This document shows positions 12,635-22,930 of a stretch of 64,000 bases of DNA, one piece after another; positions within the stretch are counted from its first letter, which is position 1, and each line of letters begins with the position of its first letter. A program made the translations under genes and the position numbers. The stretch spans positions 1,891 through 65,890 of the forward strand of contig JBDRWW010000007.1 of the NCBI GenBank assembly GCA_039802605.1. Reading direction: 5' to 3'. The notes under the pieces are model-generated. The model was not told the DNA's origin. It saw only the letters and a list, made by a program, of their open reading frames with translations, and ran no database searches. Source of the DNA: a candidate division WOR-3 bacterium (GTDB taxonomy: Bacteria > Hydrothermota > Hydrothermia > LBFQ01).

Positions 12635-13396
12635 TTATACGCTTGAAAAGTCCTTTGGCTTAAAGTTTTTTGGATTTAAAACCTTAACATCCTTGCCGTC
12701 CTTGTGCTTTAAAACGATAAGCCCCCTTTTGTTGGCATACCTATCCGCAAACTGATGGAACTTCATCCCCGCAACCGCACCGTACAACTTATAACCTTTG
12801 TACTCGGGGAAAAACTTTAAAAACCTCTTTTCCAACTCTTCAACAAACTCATCAACATCATCAACCCTTAATGTTGTCTTCACCTCCAAAACTATAACAT
12901 AATCGTCGCCTAAAACAATGCCATCCACTTCCATATTGTCATCACCCTTTTCAACCTTCACATTTGACATAACCTTAAAACCTTTAAATCCCAACTTGCT
13001 TAACGCATACTTTAAACCCTCCCTTATTGTATCTTCCGTATAGTCTTGCCAAATGCCGTTTAAATTTGCTACCGCTTTGGTTGTGTTCCTTACCTCTTCG
13101 GAAACTTTACTTATTTGAATACTTAACTTTTTTATTTGTTCATCCGTTTCAGCCTGTCTCTCAGCAAGTTCTTTTATCTTTTTATCCGTTTCTTTCAGCA
13201 TTTTATCAGTTTCCTCCTGTCTTTTTGCAAGGCTATCAACCAATTTCCTCGTTTCTTTTAACATCTTATCCGTTTCCTCTTGGCTCTTTGCCAACCTGTC
13301 AAGCCTTTCGCCAACATCATCAAGCCTTCTACCAACATCATCAAGCCTTTTTCCCACCTCTTTTAGTATCTCCCATATTTCTTTTGCATTCTCCAT
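12635..13396 (-). CDS. coiled-coil repeat protein with C-terminal PD-(D/E)XK-like (DUF3782-like) domain
   Basis: N-terminal tandem ~20-aa repeats (LAKSQEETDKMLKETRKLVDSLAKRQEETDKMLKETDKKIKELAERQAETDEQ; RLDDVGRRLDDVGERLDRL). C-terminal VDGIVLGDDYVIVLEVKTT resembles a D…(D/E)xK nuclease core. Start placed at the first ATG (MENAKEIW…); the ORF track begins 8 codons earlier at a TTG. Confidence 0.45.
   Translation of the reverse strand: MENAKEIWEILKEVGKRLDDVGRRLDDVGERLDRLAKSQEETDKMLKETRKLVDSLAKRQEETDKMLKETDKKIKELAERQAETDEQIKKLSIQISKVSEEVRNTTKAVANLNGIWQDYTEDTIREGLKYALSKLGFKGFKVMSNVKVEKGDDNMEVDGIVLGDDYVIVLEVKTTLRVDDVDEFVEELEKRFLKFFPEYKGYKLYGAVAGMKFHQFADRYANKRGLIVLKHKDGKDVKVLNPKNFKPKDFSSV
13140..13350. 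repeat. in-frame tandem DNA repeats (coding coiled-coil repeats)
   Basis: Repeated DNA words (ttatccgtttc…tttcagca / ttatcagtttcctcctgtc…; catcatcaagcct x2) that encode the repetitive coiled-coil segment of the gene above. Not a CRISPR-like array. Confidence 0.6.
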
Positions 13397-13460
13397 ACAA
13401 CGAGAATTATAAACCCGCAAAGGTGATTAAAACCTATAAAAACCGCGTTAAAATATACAC

Positions 13461-15077
13461 TTGAACCTTTTGGATTCCCTGTTTTTAATTGCCGGTATAT
13501 CTTCACGGGATTTGGGATTCTATAAAGACATTTCGGATGAAACCCTTTTAAAACCGCCTCCGGTACTTCAATTCTTTGAAAAACCCTTAAAAATGTACGA
13601 ATTTGGGGATACTTTGGTCGCACAATTGGGTGATTTTGATTTCAAAAAATTGTTAAATCTACCTTGGTGGGTAAGATTTTCGGAAACCAATGTTTCCAGC
13701 AGGATTACTTACAGGGATTCGTTTGTTGTGCACATAATGGATATTCTATACTGTCAAGAATACTTTGAAAAAAGGGCTTTTTCAAAACTCAAGAGCGACT
13801 TTATTCAAAGGGTTAGGAGCTCAATTACACACATTTGGGATACGGTTGAAACATCGGACACCCTTTCAAAGGATGATTACAGAGTATTGGAAGAAGGGGT
13901 TAATTGGAACTTTTTGTTGAATTCCTTTAACTGCCTTTTGAAATTGGATACCACAAAGTTGAAACCTATACCCGATACGGGTATTTACATATATAAAACC
14001 GCTTTTGGCGATGTAGCCATTGGTGGTAATGGAAATAACATTTTTGAAGGAAACTATAAGGCTATAATAGACTTCGGCGGGGATGATAGGTATTATCTTG
14101 ATAGTACGGTTTTGGTGGTAGATTTTTCGGGAAACGATTCGTATTACGGAAACATAGGCGGGGGTTTTATGGGTTCATCGGTTGTTTATGACTTTGAAGG
14201 CGATGATTTTTATAACTGTACGAATTACTCCTGCGGGAGCGGATTATTGGGTTTTGGTATGATTTTTGATAAGTCTGGAAACGACATATATGCCGGAGGA
14301 ATACATGTTATGGGTGCGGGTACTTTTGGTGGTGGTTTTCTCGTGGATATGCAAGGGGATGATATTTATAAAGGGGTAATTTATGGGCAGGGTTTTGGTG
14401 GGCCTTTGGGCGTGGGGCTTTTATACGACAAAGGGGGGAACGATCTTTATACCATTGGGTACGGCCCTATACACGAACCCTTGTATAAATCCCAAAGGGA
14501 AGGGTTTGGACAGGGTTTTGGTTTTGGTATAAGGGAGGATTTGGGTGGAGGGTTTGGTATTCTGCTTGACTTTTCCGGAAACGATGTTTATAACTCGGGA
14601 ACTTTCGCACAAGGGGCATCTTATTGGTATGCTTTTGGTTTCCTTTACGATGGGGATGGGGATGATAGATATATTTGTACGCAATACTGCCAAGGTTCCG
14701 GGATACATTTATCTACGGCGCTTTTTAAGGATGTAGGGGGGAATGACATGTATTTTTCCTTCGGAGGTCCTTCCGTTGGCGCCGGACACGATTTATCCGT
14801 TGGTATTTTTTACGATTCTACGGGAAACGATTTTTATAGGACGCACTCCGGTATTGGTTTGGGTTGGACGAATTCCGTAGGCATTTTTATAGACCTTATG
14901 GGTGATGATACATATTCCGTTATAGGGTGCGATTATTCCTTTGGTGGGGCAAATGTTGAGAGGGAAATGGGTGGAATTGGTATATTTTTGGATGGAGAAG
15001 GGAAAGACTCTTACAACTGTAATGTTAAAAAGGGTTTTTGGGTTAAAGGTCAATGGGGTTTTGGTTGGGATAGGTAG
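13461..15077 (+). CDS. Gly/Asp-rich ~26-aa repeat (beta-solenoid/beta-roll-like) protein, paralog A
   Basis: About 12 tandem units of the form G-h-h-h-D-x-x-G-(N/D)-D-x-Y…QGxG, for example VLVVDFSGNDSYYGN, GMIFDKSGNDIYAGG, GFLVDMQGDDIYKGVIYGQGFGG, GLLYDKGGNDLYT. N-terminal ~190 aa are unknown. TTG start; no clear signal peptide. Confidence 0.6.
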   Translation: MNLLDSLFLIAGISSRDLGFYKDISDETLLKPPPVLQFFEKPLKMYEFGDTLVAQLGDFDFKKLLNLPWWVRFSETNVSSRITYRDSFVVHIMDILYCQEYFEKRAFSKLKSDFIQRVRSSITHIWDTVETSDTLSKDDYRVLEEGVNWNFLLNSFNCLLKLDTTKLKPIPDTGIYIYKTAFGDVAIGGNGNNIFEGNYKAIIDFGGDDRYYLDSTVLVVDFSGNDSYYGNIGGGFMGSSVVYDFEGDDFYNCTNYSCGSGLLGFGMIFDKSGNDIYAGGIHVMGAGTFGGGFLVDMQGDDIYKGVIYGQGFGGPLGVGLLYDKGGNDLYTIGYGPIHEPLYKSQREGFGQGFGFGIREDLGGGFGILLDFSGNDVYNSGTFAQGASYWYAFGFLYDGDGDDRYICTQYCQGSGIHLSTALFKDVGGNDMYFSFGGPSVGAGHDLSVGIFYDSTGNDFYRTHSGIGLGWTNSVGIFIDLMGDDTYSVIGCDYSFGGANVEREMGGIGIFLDGEGKDSYNCNVKKGFWVKGQWGFGWDR

Positions 15078-18854: not shown

Positions 18855-19820
18855 ATGGATACCTTGCTACAAAACATCCTAAACCCACCCATTTTGATGT
18901 TTTTTATGGGTTTAATCGCATCGTTGCTGAAAACCGACTTGGAATTTCCCCAACCACTTCCAAAACTCTTTTCCCTTTACCTCCTCATTTCAATAGGCCT
19001 TCAAGGTGGGTACAAACTATCGCATAGCGGACTGGATATAAATGCCGTTAAGGTTTTAAGTTTGGCGGTATTTATGGCCACTTTGGTTCCATTATACACC
19101 TTTTTCATACTTAGGAGAAAAATGGATATATATAACGCCGTGGCAATAGCCGCAACATACGGTTCCATAAGTGCGGTAACTTTTGTCACGGCTGTATCAT
19201 TTTTGGAAACAATTAAAGAGGGTTTTGGGGGTTATATGGTTGCCGCCATGACCCTTATGGAATCGCCGGCTATAGTCGTAGGTCTGATACTACTCAGGAT
19301 ATTTAGGGATAGGAACAATGACAATGGCATCAATTGGGGTGAAGTTTTAAAGGAAGCGTTTTTAAACCCCTCGGTCTTTATACTTTTGGGTACATTAATA
19401 ATCGGATTTGTTGTTGGGGAAAAGGGTTGGGAATCGGTAAAACCCCTATTCGGCGATTTGTTTAGGGGTTTTTTGGCCCTTTTCCTGTTAGATATGGGTA
19501 TTGTTGCCGGTAGAAGGTTTTGGGATATAAAAAATATGGGATTTTTCTTAATAGCGTTTGCCATACTGATCCCCCTGACAAATGCCTTTATTTCCATAGG
19601 TTTAGCAAAACTGTTTGGTTTTTCAAAGGGTGATGCCCTGTTATATTCCGTTCTCTGCGCGAGCGCATCGTATATAGCCGTACCCGCCGCAATGAGGCTA
19701 TCCGTTCCCGAGGCAAATCCGAGTATATATGTAACTATGTCCTTGGCAATAACATTCCCCTTTAACATAATCGTGGGAATACCTCTTTACTACCATATAA
19801 TTAACATCTTATGGGGGTGA
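18855..19820 (+). CDS. sbtA: SbtA-family (sodium-dependent bicarbonate transporter-like) permease
   Basis: Multi-TM protein. C-terminal region LCASASYIAVPAAMRLSVPEANPSIYVTMSLAITFPFNIIVGIPLY closely parallels the cyanobacterial SbtA motif …SSSDISGPPTLRAGIPSANPSAYIGSST…, and LFGDLFRGFLALFLLDMG parallels DPLFRGLLSILMLIMG. It is shorter than cyanobacterial SbtA and has no long cytoplasmic loop. Confidence 0.65.
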   Translation: MDTLLQNILNPPILMFFMGLIASLLKTDLEFPQPLPKLFSLYLLISIGLQGGYKLSHSGLDINAVKVLSLAVFMATLVPLYTFFILRRKMDIYNAVAIAATYGSISAVTFVTAVSFLETIKEGFGGYMVAAMTLMESPAIVVGLILLRIFRDRNNDNGINWGEVLKEAFLNPSVFILLGTLIIGFVVGEKGWESVKPLFGDLFRGFLALFLLDMGIVAGRRFWDIKNMGFFLIAFAILIPLTNAFISIGLAKLFGFSKGDALLYSVLCASASYIAVPAAMRLSVPEANPSIYVTMSLAITFPFNIIVGIPLYYHIINILWG

Positions 19821-19823
19821 GAA

Positions 19824-20117
19824 ATGAAAGAGATGAAGAAAGTAGAAATAGTTATTGATAGTCTCCATATACATAGAGTTGTTGAAATCCTTGAAAGCAA
19901 CGGCGTTTCCGGCTACACTATAATAAAGGATGCTCAGGGGAAGGGGGAAAGGGGTATTATGGCTGGGGATGAGCTAACGGATGTTTTTAAAAACAGCTAT
20001 ATATTTACGGTTTGCAATGTAGAAAAGGCTATAAAAATAGCCGAAGCCATAAAACCCCTACTGAAAAAAGTGGGTGGTATATGCATCATTTCGGATGTCC
20101 TTTGGGTATCACATTAA
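19824..20117 (+). CDS. sbtB: PII-like signalling protein SbtB
   Basis: 97-aa PII-fold protein directly downstream of sbtA. GVSGYTIIKDAQGKGERG matches the SbtB/PII core (GYTV…GKG). It lacks the cyanobacterial C-terminal CGPxGC extension. Confidence 0.65.
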   Translation: MKEMKKVEIVIDSLHIHRVVEILESNGVSGYTIIKDAQGKGERGIMAGDELTDVFKNSYIFTVCNVEKAIKIAEAIKPLLKKVGGICIISDVLWVSH

Positions 20118-20136: not shown

Positions 20137-21789
20137 ATGTTATTGGGTTCGGGAGTATTTGTAATACCCTTGTACGCAATAGATTTTTGGGGTGGTACAA
20201 AACCCCCTTTACCCATATTCAATATGGCATTCTCTAATCCAAACCATTTGTATAACCTCGCCCATTCCATAGCCTTGAAGTATTCTAAGGAAACTACGGA
20301 TGTTTTCACCACCTGTGCCCTTTTATCCAAGCTATCTGGAAGCAACATCAGGGCCGGTTTAATATCCGATGTTTATGAAGAAACCGTAAGAGATATAACG
20401 GGTGATAATCCCTTGGGAAAATTCATATTTGATAACAACCCAAAACTTTCGCAAAGTATTAGGGATTCCTTGCAAATGATTCCATCATTTGTACCAAAGG
20501 GCATAAACAGAATAATAACGGCCATTTTAAAGGTTTATCTGTCCATAAGGATGGAACCTCCAAGGGATTGGAGGGCATATGTTTGGGATAGTTTATCCAT
20601 AGAAAATAAAGTAGCCTTTGAAGATAGGTTTTCATCCTTTGACATTGAAAAAACATCCTTTGCCTTTCAGGTTATGTGTGTTCTATTAGATTCCTTAAAA
20701 GTGGAGGTTAATAAGAGGGGCAAAAACATAAAGAGTTTTTATTTACCAACCCCATACGGGTATATATCCTTTGGATCGGAAAACCCAGACAGTTTTCCAA
20801 ATTCTTTAATCGTCGTTGATGCCGGTGGGGACGATGTTTATAACGATGTTAAAATAGGTTTAGACATCGATGGAAACGATGTATATCTCGGGAATGTGGG
20901 TTTTGGGATTTTTGATATATCCGCTTTTATTGATTTATTCGGAAACGATACATATAAGGGGGATTATTTGGGAAGTGGGTTCTTTGGGTACGGCTTGCTT
21001 TGGGATTCCGAAGGGAACGATATATATAGGTGTAAGGTTTTTTGTTTGGGTGCGGGTTATAAGGGTGGCGGTATGTTGGTTGATTTAGAGGGGAAAGACG
21101 AGTATTACGCCATATCAAAGGCTCAGGGTTTTGGATGGGTGGGGGGTGTTGGGATACTCGTGGATGCCGAAGGGGATGATGTCTATAAATTGGAAGACAG
21201 CGCCATTGTTTTTCCATCACCGCAAAGCCCAAAGCATAACACGAGTTTGGGGCAAGGTATGGGATTTGGTGAGAGGAGGGATTTTTATAACGGCAAATCT
21301 TTGGGTGGAGGTTTGGGAATGCTCGTGGATATAAATGGAGACGATAGATATTATTCGCATGTGTTTTCACAGGGTTCGGGGTATTGGTTGGGTATAGGTG
21401 TCCTTTACGATGGCGGTGGAAACGATGCGTATTCGGGAGTATGGTATTCACAAGGTGCATCCGCCCATTTTGGGATAGGTGCCCTTTACGATTTAAAGGG
21501 GGATGATGTTTATTTCTCTTCAATATCGACATCCCAAGGTGTGGGACATGACTTTTCATATGGGATACTATTTGACGGCGAGGGAAGGGATACATATACT
21601 TGTGGAAATCTATGCCTAGGGAGTGGAAACGCGCAAGGTGTGGGTGTTTTTTGGGATATGGATGGAAATATGAAGGTAAATTTAAATGGAAGGGGTATGG
21701 GTACCGAAAATCCCGCGGTTGATAGCACCAGTTTCAGGGCTTCTTTCCCAACAAAAGGGTTTGTGTGTAAGGGTAAAACTTGCCCTTAA
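20137..21789 (+). CDS. Gly/Asp-rich ~26-aa repeat (beta-solenoid/beta-roll-like) protein, paralog B
   Basis: Same repeat architecture as 13461..15077 (LIVVDAGGDDVYND, GLDIDGNDVYLGNVGFG, IDLFGNDTYKGDYLGSGFFG, GLLWDSEGNDIYRC, GMLVDLEGKDEYYAISKAQGFGW…) after an unrelated ~200-aa N-terminus with a hydrophobic leader (MLLGSGVFVIPLYAIDFW). Confidence 0.6.
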   Translation: MLLGSGVFVIPLYAIDFWGGTKPPLPIFNMAFSNPNHLYNLAHSIALKYSKETTDVFTTCALLSKLSGSNIRAGLISDVYEETVRDITGDNPLGKFIFDNNPKLSQSIRDSLQMIPSFVPKGINRIITAILKVYLSIRMEPPRDWRAYVWDSLSIENKVAFEDRFSSFDIEKTSFAFQVMCVLLDSLKVEVNKRGKNIKSFYLPTPYGYISFGSENPDSFPNSLIVVDAGGDDVYNDVKIGLDIDGNDVYLGNVGFGIFDISAFIDLFGNDTYKGDYLGSGFFGYGLLWDSEGNDIYRCKVFCLGAGYKGGGMLVDLEGKDEYYAISKAQGFGWVGGVGILVDAEGDDVYKLEDSAIVFPSPQSPKHNTSLGQGMGFGERRDFYNGKSLGGGLGMLVDINGDDRYYSHVFSQGSGYWLGIGVLYDGGGNDAYSGVWYSQGASAHFGIGALYDLKGDDVYFSSISTSQGVGHDFSYGILFDGEGRDTYTCGNLCLGSGNAQGVGVFWDMDGNMKVNLNGRGMGTENPAVDSTSFRASFPTKGFVCKGKTCP

Positions 21790-21814: not shown

Positions 21815-22930
21815 ATGGCAAAGGACAAAATCCGTGTTGCTATAATAGGTGTGGGGAATTGCGCATCTTCATTGGTTCAGGGGGTTTATTATTATAGGAA
21901 TGCAAAGCCCGGTGAGTTTATACCCGGCATAATGCATGTTGAATTGGGGGGATATCACATAAGCGATATAGAATTTGTGGCTGGTGTGGATATTGATGCG
22001 AGAAAGGTTGGTAAGGACCTATCCGAAGCCATATTTGCCCCTCCTAACAATACATATAAATTTACGGATGTACCCAAGTTGAACGCCAAGGTTTATAGGG
22101 GCATGACACATGACGGCATAGGTAAGTACCTTGCGGATGTTATAGTAAAGGCACCCGGACCCACTGACGATATAGCAAAGATTTTTAAGGATTTGGGTGT
22201 TGATGTGGTTGTGAATTTCCTACCCGTGGGGAGCGAAGAGGCTACAAAATGGTATGTTGAACAGGTTATAGCGGCTGGTGCCGCCTTTGTAAACGGAATA
22301 CCGGTATTTATAGCATCATCGGAGTATTGGAGTAAAAGGTTTGAGGATGCGGGTCTTCCCGTAATAGGCGATGACATAAAATCCCAAGTTGGGGCAACAA
22401 TCCTTCACAGAACATTGGTTCAACTATTTATAGACAGGGGTGTTAAACTTGAAAGGACATACCAGATAAACTTCGGCGGTAATACGGACTTCCTCAATAT
22501 GCTTGAAAGGGAAAGATTGAACTCAAAGAAAATATCAAAAACAAACGCCGTAAAATCGTTATTGCCTTACGATATAGGCGACGAAAACATACATATAGGC
22601 CCTTCGGATTACATCCCTTGGCTTAAAGACAGGAAATGGTGCTATATTAGGATGGAAGGAAAGACATTTGGAGATGTCCCGCTAAATATAGAGGCAAAAC
22701 TTGAAGTTTGGGATAGTCCCAATTCGGCGGGTGTTATGATAGATGCCATTAGGTGCGCGAAACTTGCAAAGGATAACGGCTTAAAGGGTGCAATACTTGA
22801 ACCTTCTATGTACTTTATGAAAACCCCACCAAAGCAGGTACCCGATTGGAAGGCAAAGCAGCTTTTGGAAGAGTGGATACAAAGGTACTCAATAAAGGAT
22901 AAAAAGAACAAGGAAAAGAAAGAAGGGTAA
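21815..22930 (+). CDS. myo-inositol-1-phosphate (inositol-3-phosphate) synthase, short archaeal/bacterial type
   Basis: NAD-binding N-terminus [23 protein letters not shown]; ~370 aa; characteristic internal SKKISKTN region. Confidence 0.8.

What the first reader, a model, noticed from the sequence alone, without database searches (positions are those of the whole stretch)
20137..21789. Second paralog of the Gly/Asp 26-aa repeat protein, 5 kb away, with a different N-terminal domain and a hydrophobic leader
It shares the same repeat grammar (VVDAGGDDVYND, IDGNDVYLGN, FGNDTYKGDYLGSGFFG, GLLWDSEGNDIYRC, KAQGFGWVGGVGILVDAEGDDVYK) with 13461..15077. The first ~200 residues diverge, and it starts with a possible signal or anchor (MLLGSGVFVIPLYAIDFW). 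This suggests a modular family in which a common solenoid scaffold is fused to variable N-terminal heads. The gene sits directly downstream of sbtAB on the same strand.
Basis: seen in the sequence. Interest (0 to 1): 0.5.

Follow-up and report, generated by a model that had tools for sequence, protein, structure and literature searches.

The report
Undescribed RTX-like beta-solenoid protein family
The gene is real and is one of two ancient sister copies of a widespread but unnamed bacterial protein family, a helical cap on a rod-shaped beta-solenoid that most resembles a calcium-bound antifreeze/adhesin domain; its function is unknown and it has no real link to the neighbouring bicarbonate-transporter genes.

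Summary
ORF A (20137-21789, 550 aa) and ORF B (13461-15077, 538 aa) are true paralogs. BLASTP gives E=1e-51. The solenoid alignment scores 555, against 73±13 for residue-shuffled B and 355±37 for coil-order-permuted B.

Neither protein matches Pfam, NCBIfam, PHROGs or any PDB sequence. Yet the family has about 4,400 clusters at 50% identity and occurs in at least 361 GTDB species, including WOR-3, Zixibacteria, Armatimonadota, Planctomycetota, Acidobacteriota, Ignavibacteria and Caldisericota.

The two "different heads" are homologous (hhalign 95.6%, E=1e-8). Real modularity is C-terminal: HEAT repeats in B-type relatives. The "hydrophobic leader" aligns with an internal N-domain segment. Distant members carry true signal peptides, which this lineage has lost in both paralogs. 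The sbtAB adjacency is a lineage-specific insertion.

Function is only inferred: an ancestrally exported, cation-stabilised rod with a conserved His/Asp/Arg/Trp site.

The parts
20137..21789 (+). ORF A: A-type member (550 aa) of an undescribed beta-solenoid family
   Evidence: Intact ORF. >3,487 homologs, all named 'hypothetical', none with a Pfam domain. Scores 447 bits against the A-type HMM and 285 against the B-type. pN/pS 0.12. AlphaFold pLDDT 94.8, pTM 0.94.
20137..20196 (+). Hydrophobic N-terminal segment (res 1-20, MLLGSGVFVIPLYAIDFWGG): homolog of an internal N-domain element, not the ancestral signal peptide
   Evidence: Aligns with L-T-x-x-x-A-R-I-D-x-x-D-M-x-F-[FY]-G-G of distant members, which have 22-81 further residues upstream. 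The N-domain HMM match starts at A residue 15 = profile position 47. Modelled as part of the fold, pLDDT 81-87.
20137..20727 (+). Alpha-helical N-terminal domain (res 1-197)
   Evidence: 12 helices in the AlphaFold model. Homologous to the N-domain of distant A-type members (E=8e-10) and of the B subfamily (hhalign 95.6%, E=1e-8). Least conserved part: 1.83 bits per column; pN/pS 0.18.
20728..21771 (+). Right-handed parallel beta-solenoid (res 198-545), about 10-11 coils of 15 to 28 residues, each with a D-x-x-G-[ND]-D-x-Y turn
21172..21336 (+). Long coil 6 (res 346-400) with an inserted loop carrying the family's most conserved non-repeat motif: FPSPQSPKHNTSLGQGMGFGERRD
   Evidence: 55-residue coil against 27 elsewhere. 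Near-invariant P360, S361, Q363, H367, N368, S370, Q373, R380, D382. SL-QG-G-G-R is kept in the B subfamily.
21337..21666 (+). Coils 7-10 (res 401-510) carrying the conserved Y416-W417 / H444 / H471-D472 / N498 column at 27-residue spacing; candidate ligand-binding or catalytic site
   Evidence: Highest conservation in the protein: 3.21 bits per column over res 346-510. The same W/H/H-D column occurs in B (W389, H416, H443-D444) and in the B-type consensus.
21766..21783 (+). Clade-specific C-terminal C-x-x-x-x-C tail (C544…C549) replacing the last coil and cap (~50 residues) of canonical A-type proteins
   Evidence: Alignment A1 and the hhalign consensus extend ~50 positions beyond A's end. 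The Cys pair is invariant in the clade and absent elsewhere.
13461..15077 (+). ORF B: B-type paralog (538 aa), same architecture (helical res 1-160, solenoid res 175-537)

Best explanation
ORF A encodes the A-type member, and ORF B the B-type member, of an old, undescribed two-subfamily protein family of diderm bacteria.

Shown:
- Each protein is a two-domain rod: an alpha-helical N-domain on a right-handed parallel beta-solenoid.
- The solenoid is built from a 26-28-residue coil with an invariant D-x-x-G-[ND]-D-x-Y turn.
- The nearest solved fold is the Ca2+-bound, RTX-like beta-helix of the Marinomonas adhesin MpAFP region IV.
- The A/B split predates the divergence of several phyla.
- Most members carry Sec-type signal peptides.
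- Conservation beyond the repeat skeleton concentrates in coils 6-10.

Inferred:
- The paired Asp turns bind one cation (Ca2+) per coil along one edge and rigidify the rod, as in RTX-type solenoids. I put this at about 0.5.
- The conserved insertion loop (FPSxQxxEHN…QGxGxGxR-x-D) and the stacked Y-W / H / H-D / N column form a site that binds or processes a conserved cell-envelope polymer. A glycan is most likely, because carbohydrate-active enzymes and adhesins dominate this fold class. I put this at about 0.3.

In this Caldipriscus-like thermophilic WOR-3 lineage both paralogs lost the signal peptide and gained co-varying Cys pairs. They may therefore act in the cytoplasm or be exported atypically.

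The position downstream of sbtAB reflects a local insertion of that cassette, not a functional link.
For: Paralogy and register.

No known family: Pfam and NCBIfam give 0 hits. All 62 alignment members scanned at E<=1 give nothing, and no HemolysinCabind. PHROGs gives 0 hits. PDB sequence and profile searches find nothing.

Family size and spread: >3,487 and 2,237 hits. 4,400 50%-identity clusters, 2,585 of them at E<=1e-30. 361 GTDB species-level loci across about ten phyla.

Two ancient subfamilies: reciprocal HMM scores separate 120/120 and 120/120 database hits, and A and B fall on opposite sides.

Same architecture.

RTX-like turn: the MpAFP-RIV consensus is xGTGNDxuxuGGxuxGxux, with peptide IDAGTGNDEIYIK (PMC3492233). 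The RTX unit is XUXGGXGXD, with Asp-9 and Gly carbonyls binding Ca2+ (PMC6891781). A has VVDAGGDDVYND and LVDAEGDDVYKL.

Conserved site.

Signal peptides in distant members, absent here.

sbtAB not conserved.

Real gene: pN/pS 0.12.
Against: Cation binding and any ligand or activity are inferred from fold analogy and conservation only. No coordinates were available to confirm that the conserved His/Asp/Arg/Trp residues cluster in space or face the solvent. Some may be structural ladders.

No conserved operon partner supports a glycan role. No neighbour family occurs in more than 12 of 83 loci, and those that recur are generic.

The loss of the signal peptide in this lineage conflicts with Ca2+-dependent folding if the proteins are cytoplasmic. 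MpAFP cannot fold at cytosolic Ca2+ levels (PMC3492233).

Foldseek found no significant PDB match (best E=0.33), so the MpAFP similarity is at fold level, not evidence of homology.
Confidence: 0.5

Rival explanations
1. Purely structural or adhesive rod. The solenoid is a Ca2+-stiffened spacer or scaffold on or in the envelope, like the RTX-adhesin region it resembles. The conserved Q, H, W and N columns are internal or edge ladders that stabilise the fold. There is no catalytic or specific ligand site.
For: The best structural match is a domain of a giant adhesin. The next matches are adhesins and autotransporter passengers (EtpA, SRRP, Vag8, HMW1, TibA, Ag43). The conserved residues recur at a fixed coil position with 27-residue spacing, as stacking ladders do. 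HEAT-repeat fusions suggest protein-protein scaffolding. No enzyme-type neighbours were found.
Against: Adhesins usually evolve fast and vary in repeat number. This family keeps a fixed coil count and near-invariant polar residues across about ten phyla at 33-45% identity. Conservation is concentrated in only half of the coils plus a non-repeat insertion loop. The genes occur as one or two copies in housekeeping-like contexts.
Confidence: 0.25
2. This is a modular family in which a common solenoid scaffold is fused to unrelated, variable N-terminal heads. A starts with a signal peptide or membrane anchor and works with the upstream sbtAB bicarbonate transporter.
For: The N-domains show no pairwise similarity (z=-0.3). 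B's N-domain is missed by an A-type N-domain HMM. A's first 18 residues are hydrophobic, specifically in this clade. A starts 19 nt after sbtB with no terminator between them.
Against: The N-domain profiles are homologous (95.6%, E=1e-8) and the full-length profiles align from the first N-domain element onward. The hydrophobic start aligns with an internal domain segment downstream of the true signal peptides of relatives, and it lacks an n-region charge. sbtAB is absent next to A in Ca. Caldipriscus (ruvB-A, 11-nt spacer) and in the 58-61% relatives.
Confidence: 0.08
3. In this lineage A and B are cytoplasmic metal-handling or assembly scaffolds, comparable to the beta-helix proteins SufB/SufD or NosD. 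They would use the His/His/Asp column and the clade-specific Cys pairs to bind a metal or cluster.
For: Both paralogs lack signal peptides. H444/H471/D472 resemble a 2-His-1-carboxylate set. The clade-specific Cys pairs co-vary. SufBD and NosD appear among weak structural matches.
Against: The family is ancestrally exported. The Cys pairs are absent outside the clade, so they cannot be the family's core function. The SufBD Foldseek hits are insignificant (prob 0.03). No Fe-S or metal-trafficking neighbours were found.
Confidence: 0.1
4. The ORF is not a real gene: a low-complexity Gly/Asp stretch that happens to be open.
For: Gly makes up about 20% of the solenoid. A 222-aa shadow ORF is open on the opposite strand.
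Against: pN/pS is 0.12. There are thousands of full-length homologs. The AlphaFold model has pLDDT 94.8. The shuffle z-score is 38.
Confidence: 0.01

Closest known systems
MpAFP / MpIBP region IV (PDB 3p4g): Ca2+-bound right-handed beta-helix of the Marinomonas primoryensis RTX adhesin
   Different: The coil is 26-28 residues, not 19. There is no sequence-level match (PDB phmmer and profile searches negative; Foldseek E=2). The family has an N-terminal helical domain and Sec signal peptides instead of belonging to a 1.5-MDa T1SS adhesin. The organism is a thermophile, so ice binding is irrelevant. The family also has a conserved His/Asp/Arg/Trp site and an insertion loop that have no counterpart in the published 19-residue MpAFP-RIV repeat consensus.
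RTX (repeats-in-toxin) beta-roll, nonapeptide GGxGxDxUx (Pfam HemolysinCabind PF00353)
   Same: The turn h-L-h-D-x-x-G-x-D-x-Y matches the nonapeptide at U2, G7, D9 and the following U2'. It has the Gly/Asp-rich character of a cation-binding turn.
   Different: There is only one partial nonapeptide per 27-residue coil, not tandem nonapeptides. G4 is replaced by Asp. PF00353 is not detected in any of the 62 members even at E<=1. The family has N-terminal Sec signals, not a C-terminal T1SS signal. No T1SS genes lie nearby.
Pectate-lyase-like right-handed beta-helix proteins (polysaccharide lyases, hydrolases and epimerases; phage tailspike depolymerases; autotransporter and TPS adhesins)
   Different: No Pfam Beta_helix, Pectate_lyase or PbH1 signal. 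The repeat is far more regular and Gly/Asp-rich. The rmsd values are higher (3-5 Å). No catalytic motif of any CAZy family could be recognised.

Membership tests
RTX beta-roll proteins | Tandem nonapeptide repeats GGxGxDxUx, detectable as Pfam PF00353 HemolysinCabind | tested here: not met
   No PF00353 hit for A or B, nor for any of the 62 family members at E<=1. The sequence shows one partial nonapeptide per 26-28-residue coil.
RTX beta-roll proteins | Secretion by a type I system through a C-terminal signal, usually with T1SS genes nearby | tested here: not met
   Distant members have N-terminal Sec-type signal peptides. No ABC, MFP or TolC trio lies next to the gene in the window or in the loci examined.
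RTX beta-roll proteins | Ca2+ binding at the Gly/Asp turns, with Ca2+-dependent folding | not testable with these tools
   Only inferred from the D-x-x-G-[ND]-D turn and the fold match to 3p4g.
MpAFP region IV-type Ca2+-bound beta-helix | Right-handed parallel beta-helix superposable on 3p4g | tested here: met
MpAFP region IV-type Ca2+-bound beta-helix | 19-residue repeat xGTGNDxuxuGGxuxGxux | tested here: not met
   The coil length is 26-28 residues. Only the G-[ND]-D-x-u turn is shared. No sequence match to PDB chains.
Pectate-lyase-like beta-helix carbohydrate-active enzymes | Sequence membership (Pfam Beta_helix, Pectate_lyase or PbH1 families) and a recognised catalytic motif | tested here: not met
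The unnamed family itself, A-type subfamily | Full-length match to a profile built only from distant A-type members, scoring higher than against the B-type profile | tested here: met
   A scores 446.7 bits (A-type) against 285.4 (B-type). B scores 306.5 against 484.3. All 240 database hits separate the same way.
SbtA/SbtB bicarbonate-uptake module (as an accessory component) | Conserved adjacency or co-occurrence with sbtA-sbtB | tested here: not met
   The adjacency occurs only in the window and its 93% relative L008. It is absent in L010 and L011 (ruvB-A) and in L015, where lon is upstream. No sbtA hit was found in any other of the loci searched.
Known anti-phage defence or phage protein families | Match to PADLOC or PHROGs models | tested here: not met
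   PHROGs gives 0 hits. PADLOC gives only a marginal 17.6-bit hit (E=5.5e-4) of the helical N-domain to the candidate family PDC-M63B, and none for B.

The most novel reading that the evidence does not exclude
A and B represent a new, phylum-spanning enzyme or receptor family. A cation-stabilised 27-residue beta-solenoid would carry a novel active site: a stacked Trp/His/His-Asp/Asn column plus an Arg-bearing insertion loop, possibly a 2-His-1-carboxylate metal centre. It would act on a conserved envelope polymer. The A-type and B-type proteins might work as a pair, and in thermophilic Caldipriscota the pair would have been jointly relocated (signal peptides lost) and restabilised by new Cys staples.
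Probability: 0.2. Interest if true: 0.65.

Novelty: new variant of a known kind. Interest (0 to 1): 0.4.

Why it matters
About 4,400 sequence clusters in at least ten mostly uncultured phyla encode this protein. These include WOR-3/Caldipriscota, Zixibacteria, Armatimonadota, Planctomycetota, Acidobacteriota, Ignavibacteria and Caldisericota. Yet the family has no Pfam or NCBIfam model, no solved structure and no name.

Defining it would improve annotation of many MAGs. The definition would cover two subfamilies, a fixed architecture, a new 27-residue RTX-like coil and a sharply conserved site. It also gives a concrete target for structural and biochemical work.

The parallel loss of signal peptides and gain of Cys pairs in both paralogs of one thermophilic lineage is a neat natural experiment in protein relocation and thermostabilisation.

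For the original finding, the useful outcome is corrective. The 'modular heads', the 'leader' and the sbtAB association should not be propagated.

Tried and rejected
1. Known-family assignment. All of the following were negative: Pfam and NCBIfam on A and B; Pfam on all 62 alignment members at E<=1; PHROGs and PADLOC; PDB by sequence and by profile. The single PADLOC hit (PDC-M63B, 17.6 bits, helical N-domain only) was judged a chance or helical-composition match.

3. Function from gene context. I examined four individual loci and clustered all flanking ORFs of 83 loci. The only recurrent neighbours are an ABC ATPase, SDR, HAD, GlnA, a helicase, UDP-glucose dehydrogenase, an M16 peptidase and an ECF sigma factor. 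These are generic families and within-lineage synteny. The one suggestive case, an overlapping downstream SLT lytic transglycosylase in a WOR-3 species, is not general.

4. sbtAB linkage was rejected by synteny.

5. Rfam on the whole window gave no hits, so the window contains no RNA marker with which to identify the organism. It was placed through protein relatives instead (WOR-3 / Ca. Caldipriscus).

6. The promoter and terminator scan around A found nothing above the shuffle expectation.

7. My first signal-peptide anchor, the column of A's Met1, was misleading because MAFFT split 'ML' into the signal-peptide columns. I redid the test anchored on residue 3.

8. The literature search for a prior description of the family found none.
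Full report
**1. The observation**

The window carries an intact 550-aa ORF at 20137..21789 (+), here called A, and a 538-aa ORF at 13461..15077 (+, TTG start), here called B.

BLASTP with composition-based statistics aligns A139-511 with B115-482 at 34% identity, E=1e-51.

Both proteins contain a unit G-h-G-h-L-h-D-x-x-G-[ND]-D-x-Y. It recurs every 23-28 residues, 10 times in A and 12 times in B. The coils widen from the N-terminal end: 15/17, 23, 24/26, 26, 27. One long coil of 55 residues in A and 47 in B carries an insertion.

| Comparison | Smith-Waterman score |
|---|---|
| Native solenoid vs solenoid | 555 |
| B residues shuffled | 73±13 (z=38) |
| B coil order permuted | 355±37 (z=5.5; 0 of 300 reach native) |

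The repeat skeleton explains roughly two-thirds of the score, but the coils also correspond one to one. Six of A's 10 coils have their positional counterpart in B as best match.

A six-frame HMM scan finds only these two copies in the window.

Against the 93%-identical orthologs, pN/pS is 0.12 for A and 0.20 for B. Within A it is 0.08 for the solenoid and 0.18 for the N-domain. Both are therefore real, constrained genes. The 222-aa ORF on the opposite strand (20927..21595) is a shadow of the Gly/Asp-rich frame.

**2. What it belongs to**

Neither protein matches Pfam, NCBIfam or PHROGs. PADLOC gives nothing beyond one marginal hit of A's helical N-domain (17.6 bits). Neither protein matches any PDB chain, by sequence or by profile. 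Scanning all 62 members of the family alignment against Pfam at E<=1 gives nothing, and in particular no HemolysinCabind.

Yet A has more than 3,487 database homologs and B has 2,237. All are 'hypothetical' or, for some B relatives, 'HEAT repeat domain-containing'. An exhaustive profile search of 1.84 billion representatives finds 4,400 clusters at 50% identity, 2,585 of them at E<=1e-30.

A pattern scan of GTDB species representatives finds 361 loci. They come from WOR-3 (Caldipriscus, Hydrothermus, Stahlbacteria), Zixibacteria, Armatimonadota, Eisenbacteria, Ignavibacteria, Caldisericota, Planctomycetota and Acidobacteriota.

The closest relatives are an uncultured MAG (93%), WOR-3 MAGs and Ca. 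Caldipriscus (70%). The window therefore comes from a Caldipriscus-like thermophilic WOR-3 (Caldipriscota) bacterium. The first cultured WOR-3 strain is diderm with a thick wall (PMC12285271).

**3. A and B are ancient sister subfamilies**

I built HMMs from distant members only.

| Protein | A-type profile (bits) | B-type profile (bits) |
|---|---|---|
| A | 447 | 285 |
| B | 306 | 484 |

All 120 best hits of A and all 120 best hits of B fall on their own side. The duplication therefore predates the divergence of several phyla.

Within the Caldipriscus-like clade the two genes stay loosely linked. They lie 1.7-5 kb apart in 6 of 10 loci, on the same or opposite strands. They are never adjacent, and distant loci hold a single copy.

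**4. The 'different heads'**

At pairwise level the N-terminal ~200 residues are unrecognisably diverged (z=-0.3). An A-type N-domain HMM misses B.

Profile-profile comparison tells a different story. The two N-domains align with 95.6% probability, E=1.1e-8, over 150 columns. The full-length subfamily profiles align from the first N-domain element to the C-terminus (probability 100%, E=3e-120, 600 columns).

The AlphaFold models agree:
- A (pLDDT 94.8, pTM 0.94): helices over residues 12-197, then strands to residue 545.
- B (pLDDT 93.2, pTM 0.94): helices over residues 2-160, then strands over 175-537.

The heads are fast-evolving homologs, not swapped modules. The genuine modularity in the family is C-terminal. 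Many B-type proteins of 800-940 aa add HEAT repeats at about residues 700-830.

**5. The 'hydrophobic leader'**

In the family alignment, A residues 3-20 (LGSGVFVIPLYAIDFWGG) align with an internal segment of distant members, for example LTKQTARIDRDGMNLFGG.

All 51 distant A-type members have 22-81 further residues upstream (median 35) that contain a hydrophobic core. Of these, 43 of 51 have K/R at positions 2-8, for example MKRKLLLIILVAVNLVSALEP. These are the real Sec-type signal peptides. The A clade has only 1-2 residues there.

B-type proteins behave the same way. Of 44 distant members, 39 have an extension of at least 15 residues, while the B clade has 0-10. No upstream start is possible for A, because the ORF list starts at the first start codon after a stop.

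This lineage therefore lost the signal peptide in both paralogs. One caveat remains. The aligned segment is polar in distant members (median Kyte-Doolittle hydropathy (KD) -0.53) but hydrophobic in the A clade (+0.7 to +1.3). An atypical anchor or signal therefore cannot be excluded without a dedicated predictor or an experiment.

Both paralogs also acquired clade-specific Cys pairs that co-vary:
- In A: C60/C181, C299/C303, C489/C493 and C544/C549.
- In B: C98/C158, C253/C258, C406/C410 and C490/C520.

A clade proteins also lack the last ~50 residues of canonical A-type proteins.

**6. The sbtAB neighbourhood**

The gene order here is B - gltX(-) - aminotransferase - ruvB - sbtA - sbtB - A - inositol-phosphate synthase. 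The 93% relative has the same order.

In two Ca. Caldipriscus MAGs the order is B - gltX - aminotransferase - ruvB - A, with an 11-nt ruvB-A spacer and no sbtAB. In a 58% relative, lon lies upstream. sbtAB is therefore a recent insertion, not a partner.

Clustering all flanking ORFs of 83 loci finds no neighbour family in more than 12 loci. Those that recur are generic: an ABC ATPase, SDR, HAD, GlnA, a helicase, UDP-glucose dehydrogenase, an M16 peptidase and an ECF sigma factor.

**7. Fold and mechanism**

Foldseek finds no significant PDB match.

MpAFP-RIV is built of 19-residue RTX-like repeats, xGTGNDxuxuGGxuxGxux, with one Ca2+ per coil (PMC3492233). RTX nonapeptides, XUXGGXGXD, bind Ca2+ through Asp-9 and Gly carbonyls (PMC6891781).

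The turn here, h-L-h-D-x-x-G-[ND]-D-x-Y, keeps U2, G7, D9 and the next U. It occurs only once per 26-28-residue coil, and Asp replaces G4. I infer one cation site per coil along one edge of the rod. This is not shown.

Conservation is uneven.

| Region of A | Mean conservation (bits per column) |
|---|---|
| N-domain (res 1-200) | 1.83 |
| Solenoid, res 201-345 (incl. coils 1-5) | 2.59 |
| Coils 6-10 (res 346-510) | 3.21 |

The near-invariant residues that are not part of the repeat skeleton lie in two places. One is the insertion loop: P360, S361, Q363, H367, N368, R380, D382. The other is a column at a fixed coil position: Y416-W417, H444, H471-D472, N498.

The W/H/H-D column and the QGxGxGxR arginine are also invariant in the B subfamily: W389, H416, H443-D444, R358. 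This looks like a binding or catalytic site, not pure scaffold. Because this fold class is dominated by carbohydrate-active enzymes and adhesins, and because the family is ancestrally exported, I favour an envelope glycan as ligand. The probability is only about 0.3.

**8. Comparison and novelty**

The protein works like a Ca2+-type beta-solenoid, but it fails the defining sequence tests for RTX and for MpAFP-RIV. There are no tandem nonapeptides, no 19-residue repeat and no T1SS. It also fails the tests for pectate-lyase-like families.

It is best described as a new variant of a known kind. It is an unnamed, widespread family with a novel 27-residue RTX-like coil, a helical cap domain and a sharply conserved site.

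**9. Verdict**

Function remains inferential. Interest is moderate at 0.4.

Noticed in passing
window 18855-20117 (sbtA 18855-19820, sbtB-like P-II 19824-20117); compare L010 9060-10001 and L011 3135-4076: The sbtA/sbtB cassette (PF05982, E=3.5e-120, plus a P-II-like protein) sits exactly in the ruvB-A intergenic spacer. In Ca. Caldipriscus MAGs that spacer is only 11 nt. The cassette looks like a recent 1.3-kb insertion of a bicarbonate-transporter module in a non-cyanobacterial thermophile. The WOR-3 genomics paper does not mention bicarbonate uptake.
   Followed up: partly
window A: Cys at residues 60, 181, 299, 303, 489, 493, 544, 549 (nt 20314-21783); B: Cys at residues 98, 158, 253, 258, 406, 410, 490, 520: Clade-specific cysteines occur in co-varying pairs in both paralogs. 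They are invariant in the Caldipriscus-like clade and replaced by A/S/G/L elsewhere. C299/C303 are present or absent together, as are B C490/C520. This suggests disulfide or metal staples acquired in parallel, together with loss of the signal peptide.
   Followed up: partly
window 12635-13420 (-), divergent from B: A 261-aa protein with a long coiled coil and a NERD-like nuclease domain (PF08378, 24 bits). It gives many weak coiled-coil hits to SMC-like defence proteins (JetC, DndD, LmuB) in PADLOC. These are probably compositional; it is not conserved next to B in relatives.
   Followed up: no
L004 8001-12090 and L005 4897-8986 (WOR-3 MAGs): In one WOR-3 species the A-type gene overlaps by 11 nt a downstream 715-aa SLT-domain lytic transglycosylase gene. 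A UDP-glucose dehydrogenase gene lies just upstream, and it recurs upstream in 4 loci. This is the only hint of a cell-wall or glycan connection, and it is not general.
   Followed up: partly
P0135 (Ca. Caldipriscus sp., 440 aa): This protein is 59% identical to the N-terminal half of B and then continues into an ABC-ATPase/AAA_21 fragment. It is probably a frameshift, assembly or gene-call chimera, not a real fusion.
   Followed up: no
L015 and L017 (GCA_013154295.1 and a sister MAG, labelled Thermotogota/Thermotogae): MAGs deposited as 'Thermotogota bacterium' carry A and B orthologs at 58-60% and 49-50% identity, as do WOR-3 MAGs. They are probably misclassified WOR-3/Caldipriscota genomes.
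   Followed up: no
window 20927-21595 (-): A 222-aa ORF lies antisense to A, and similar ORFs lie antisense to B (14421-14708, 14793-15053). These are shadow ORFs produced by the GGN/GAY-rich sense frame, not genes.
   Followed up: yes
window 21815-22930 (+): The gene 25 nt downstream of A encodes a myo-inositol-1-phosphate synthase. It matches PF01658 and scores 511 bits against TIGR03450, below the 638-bit cut-off. This synteny is shared only with the 93% relative.
   Followed up: no
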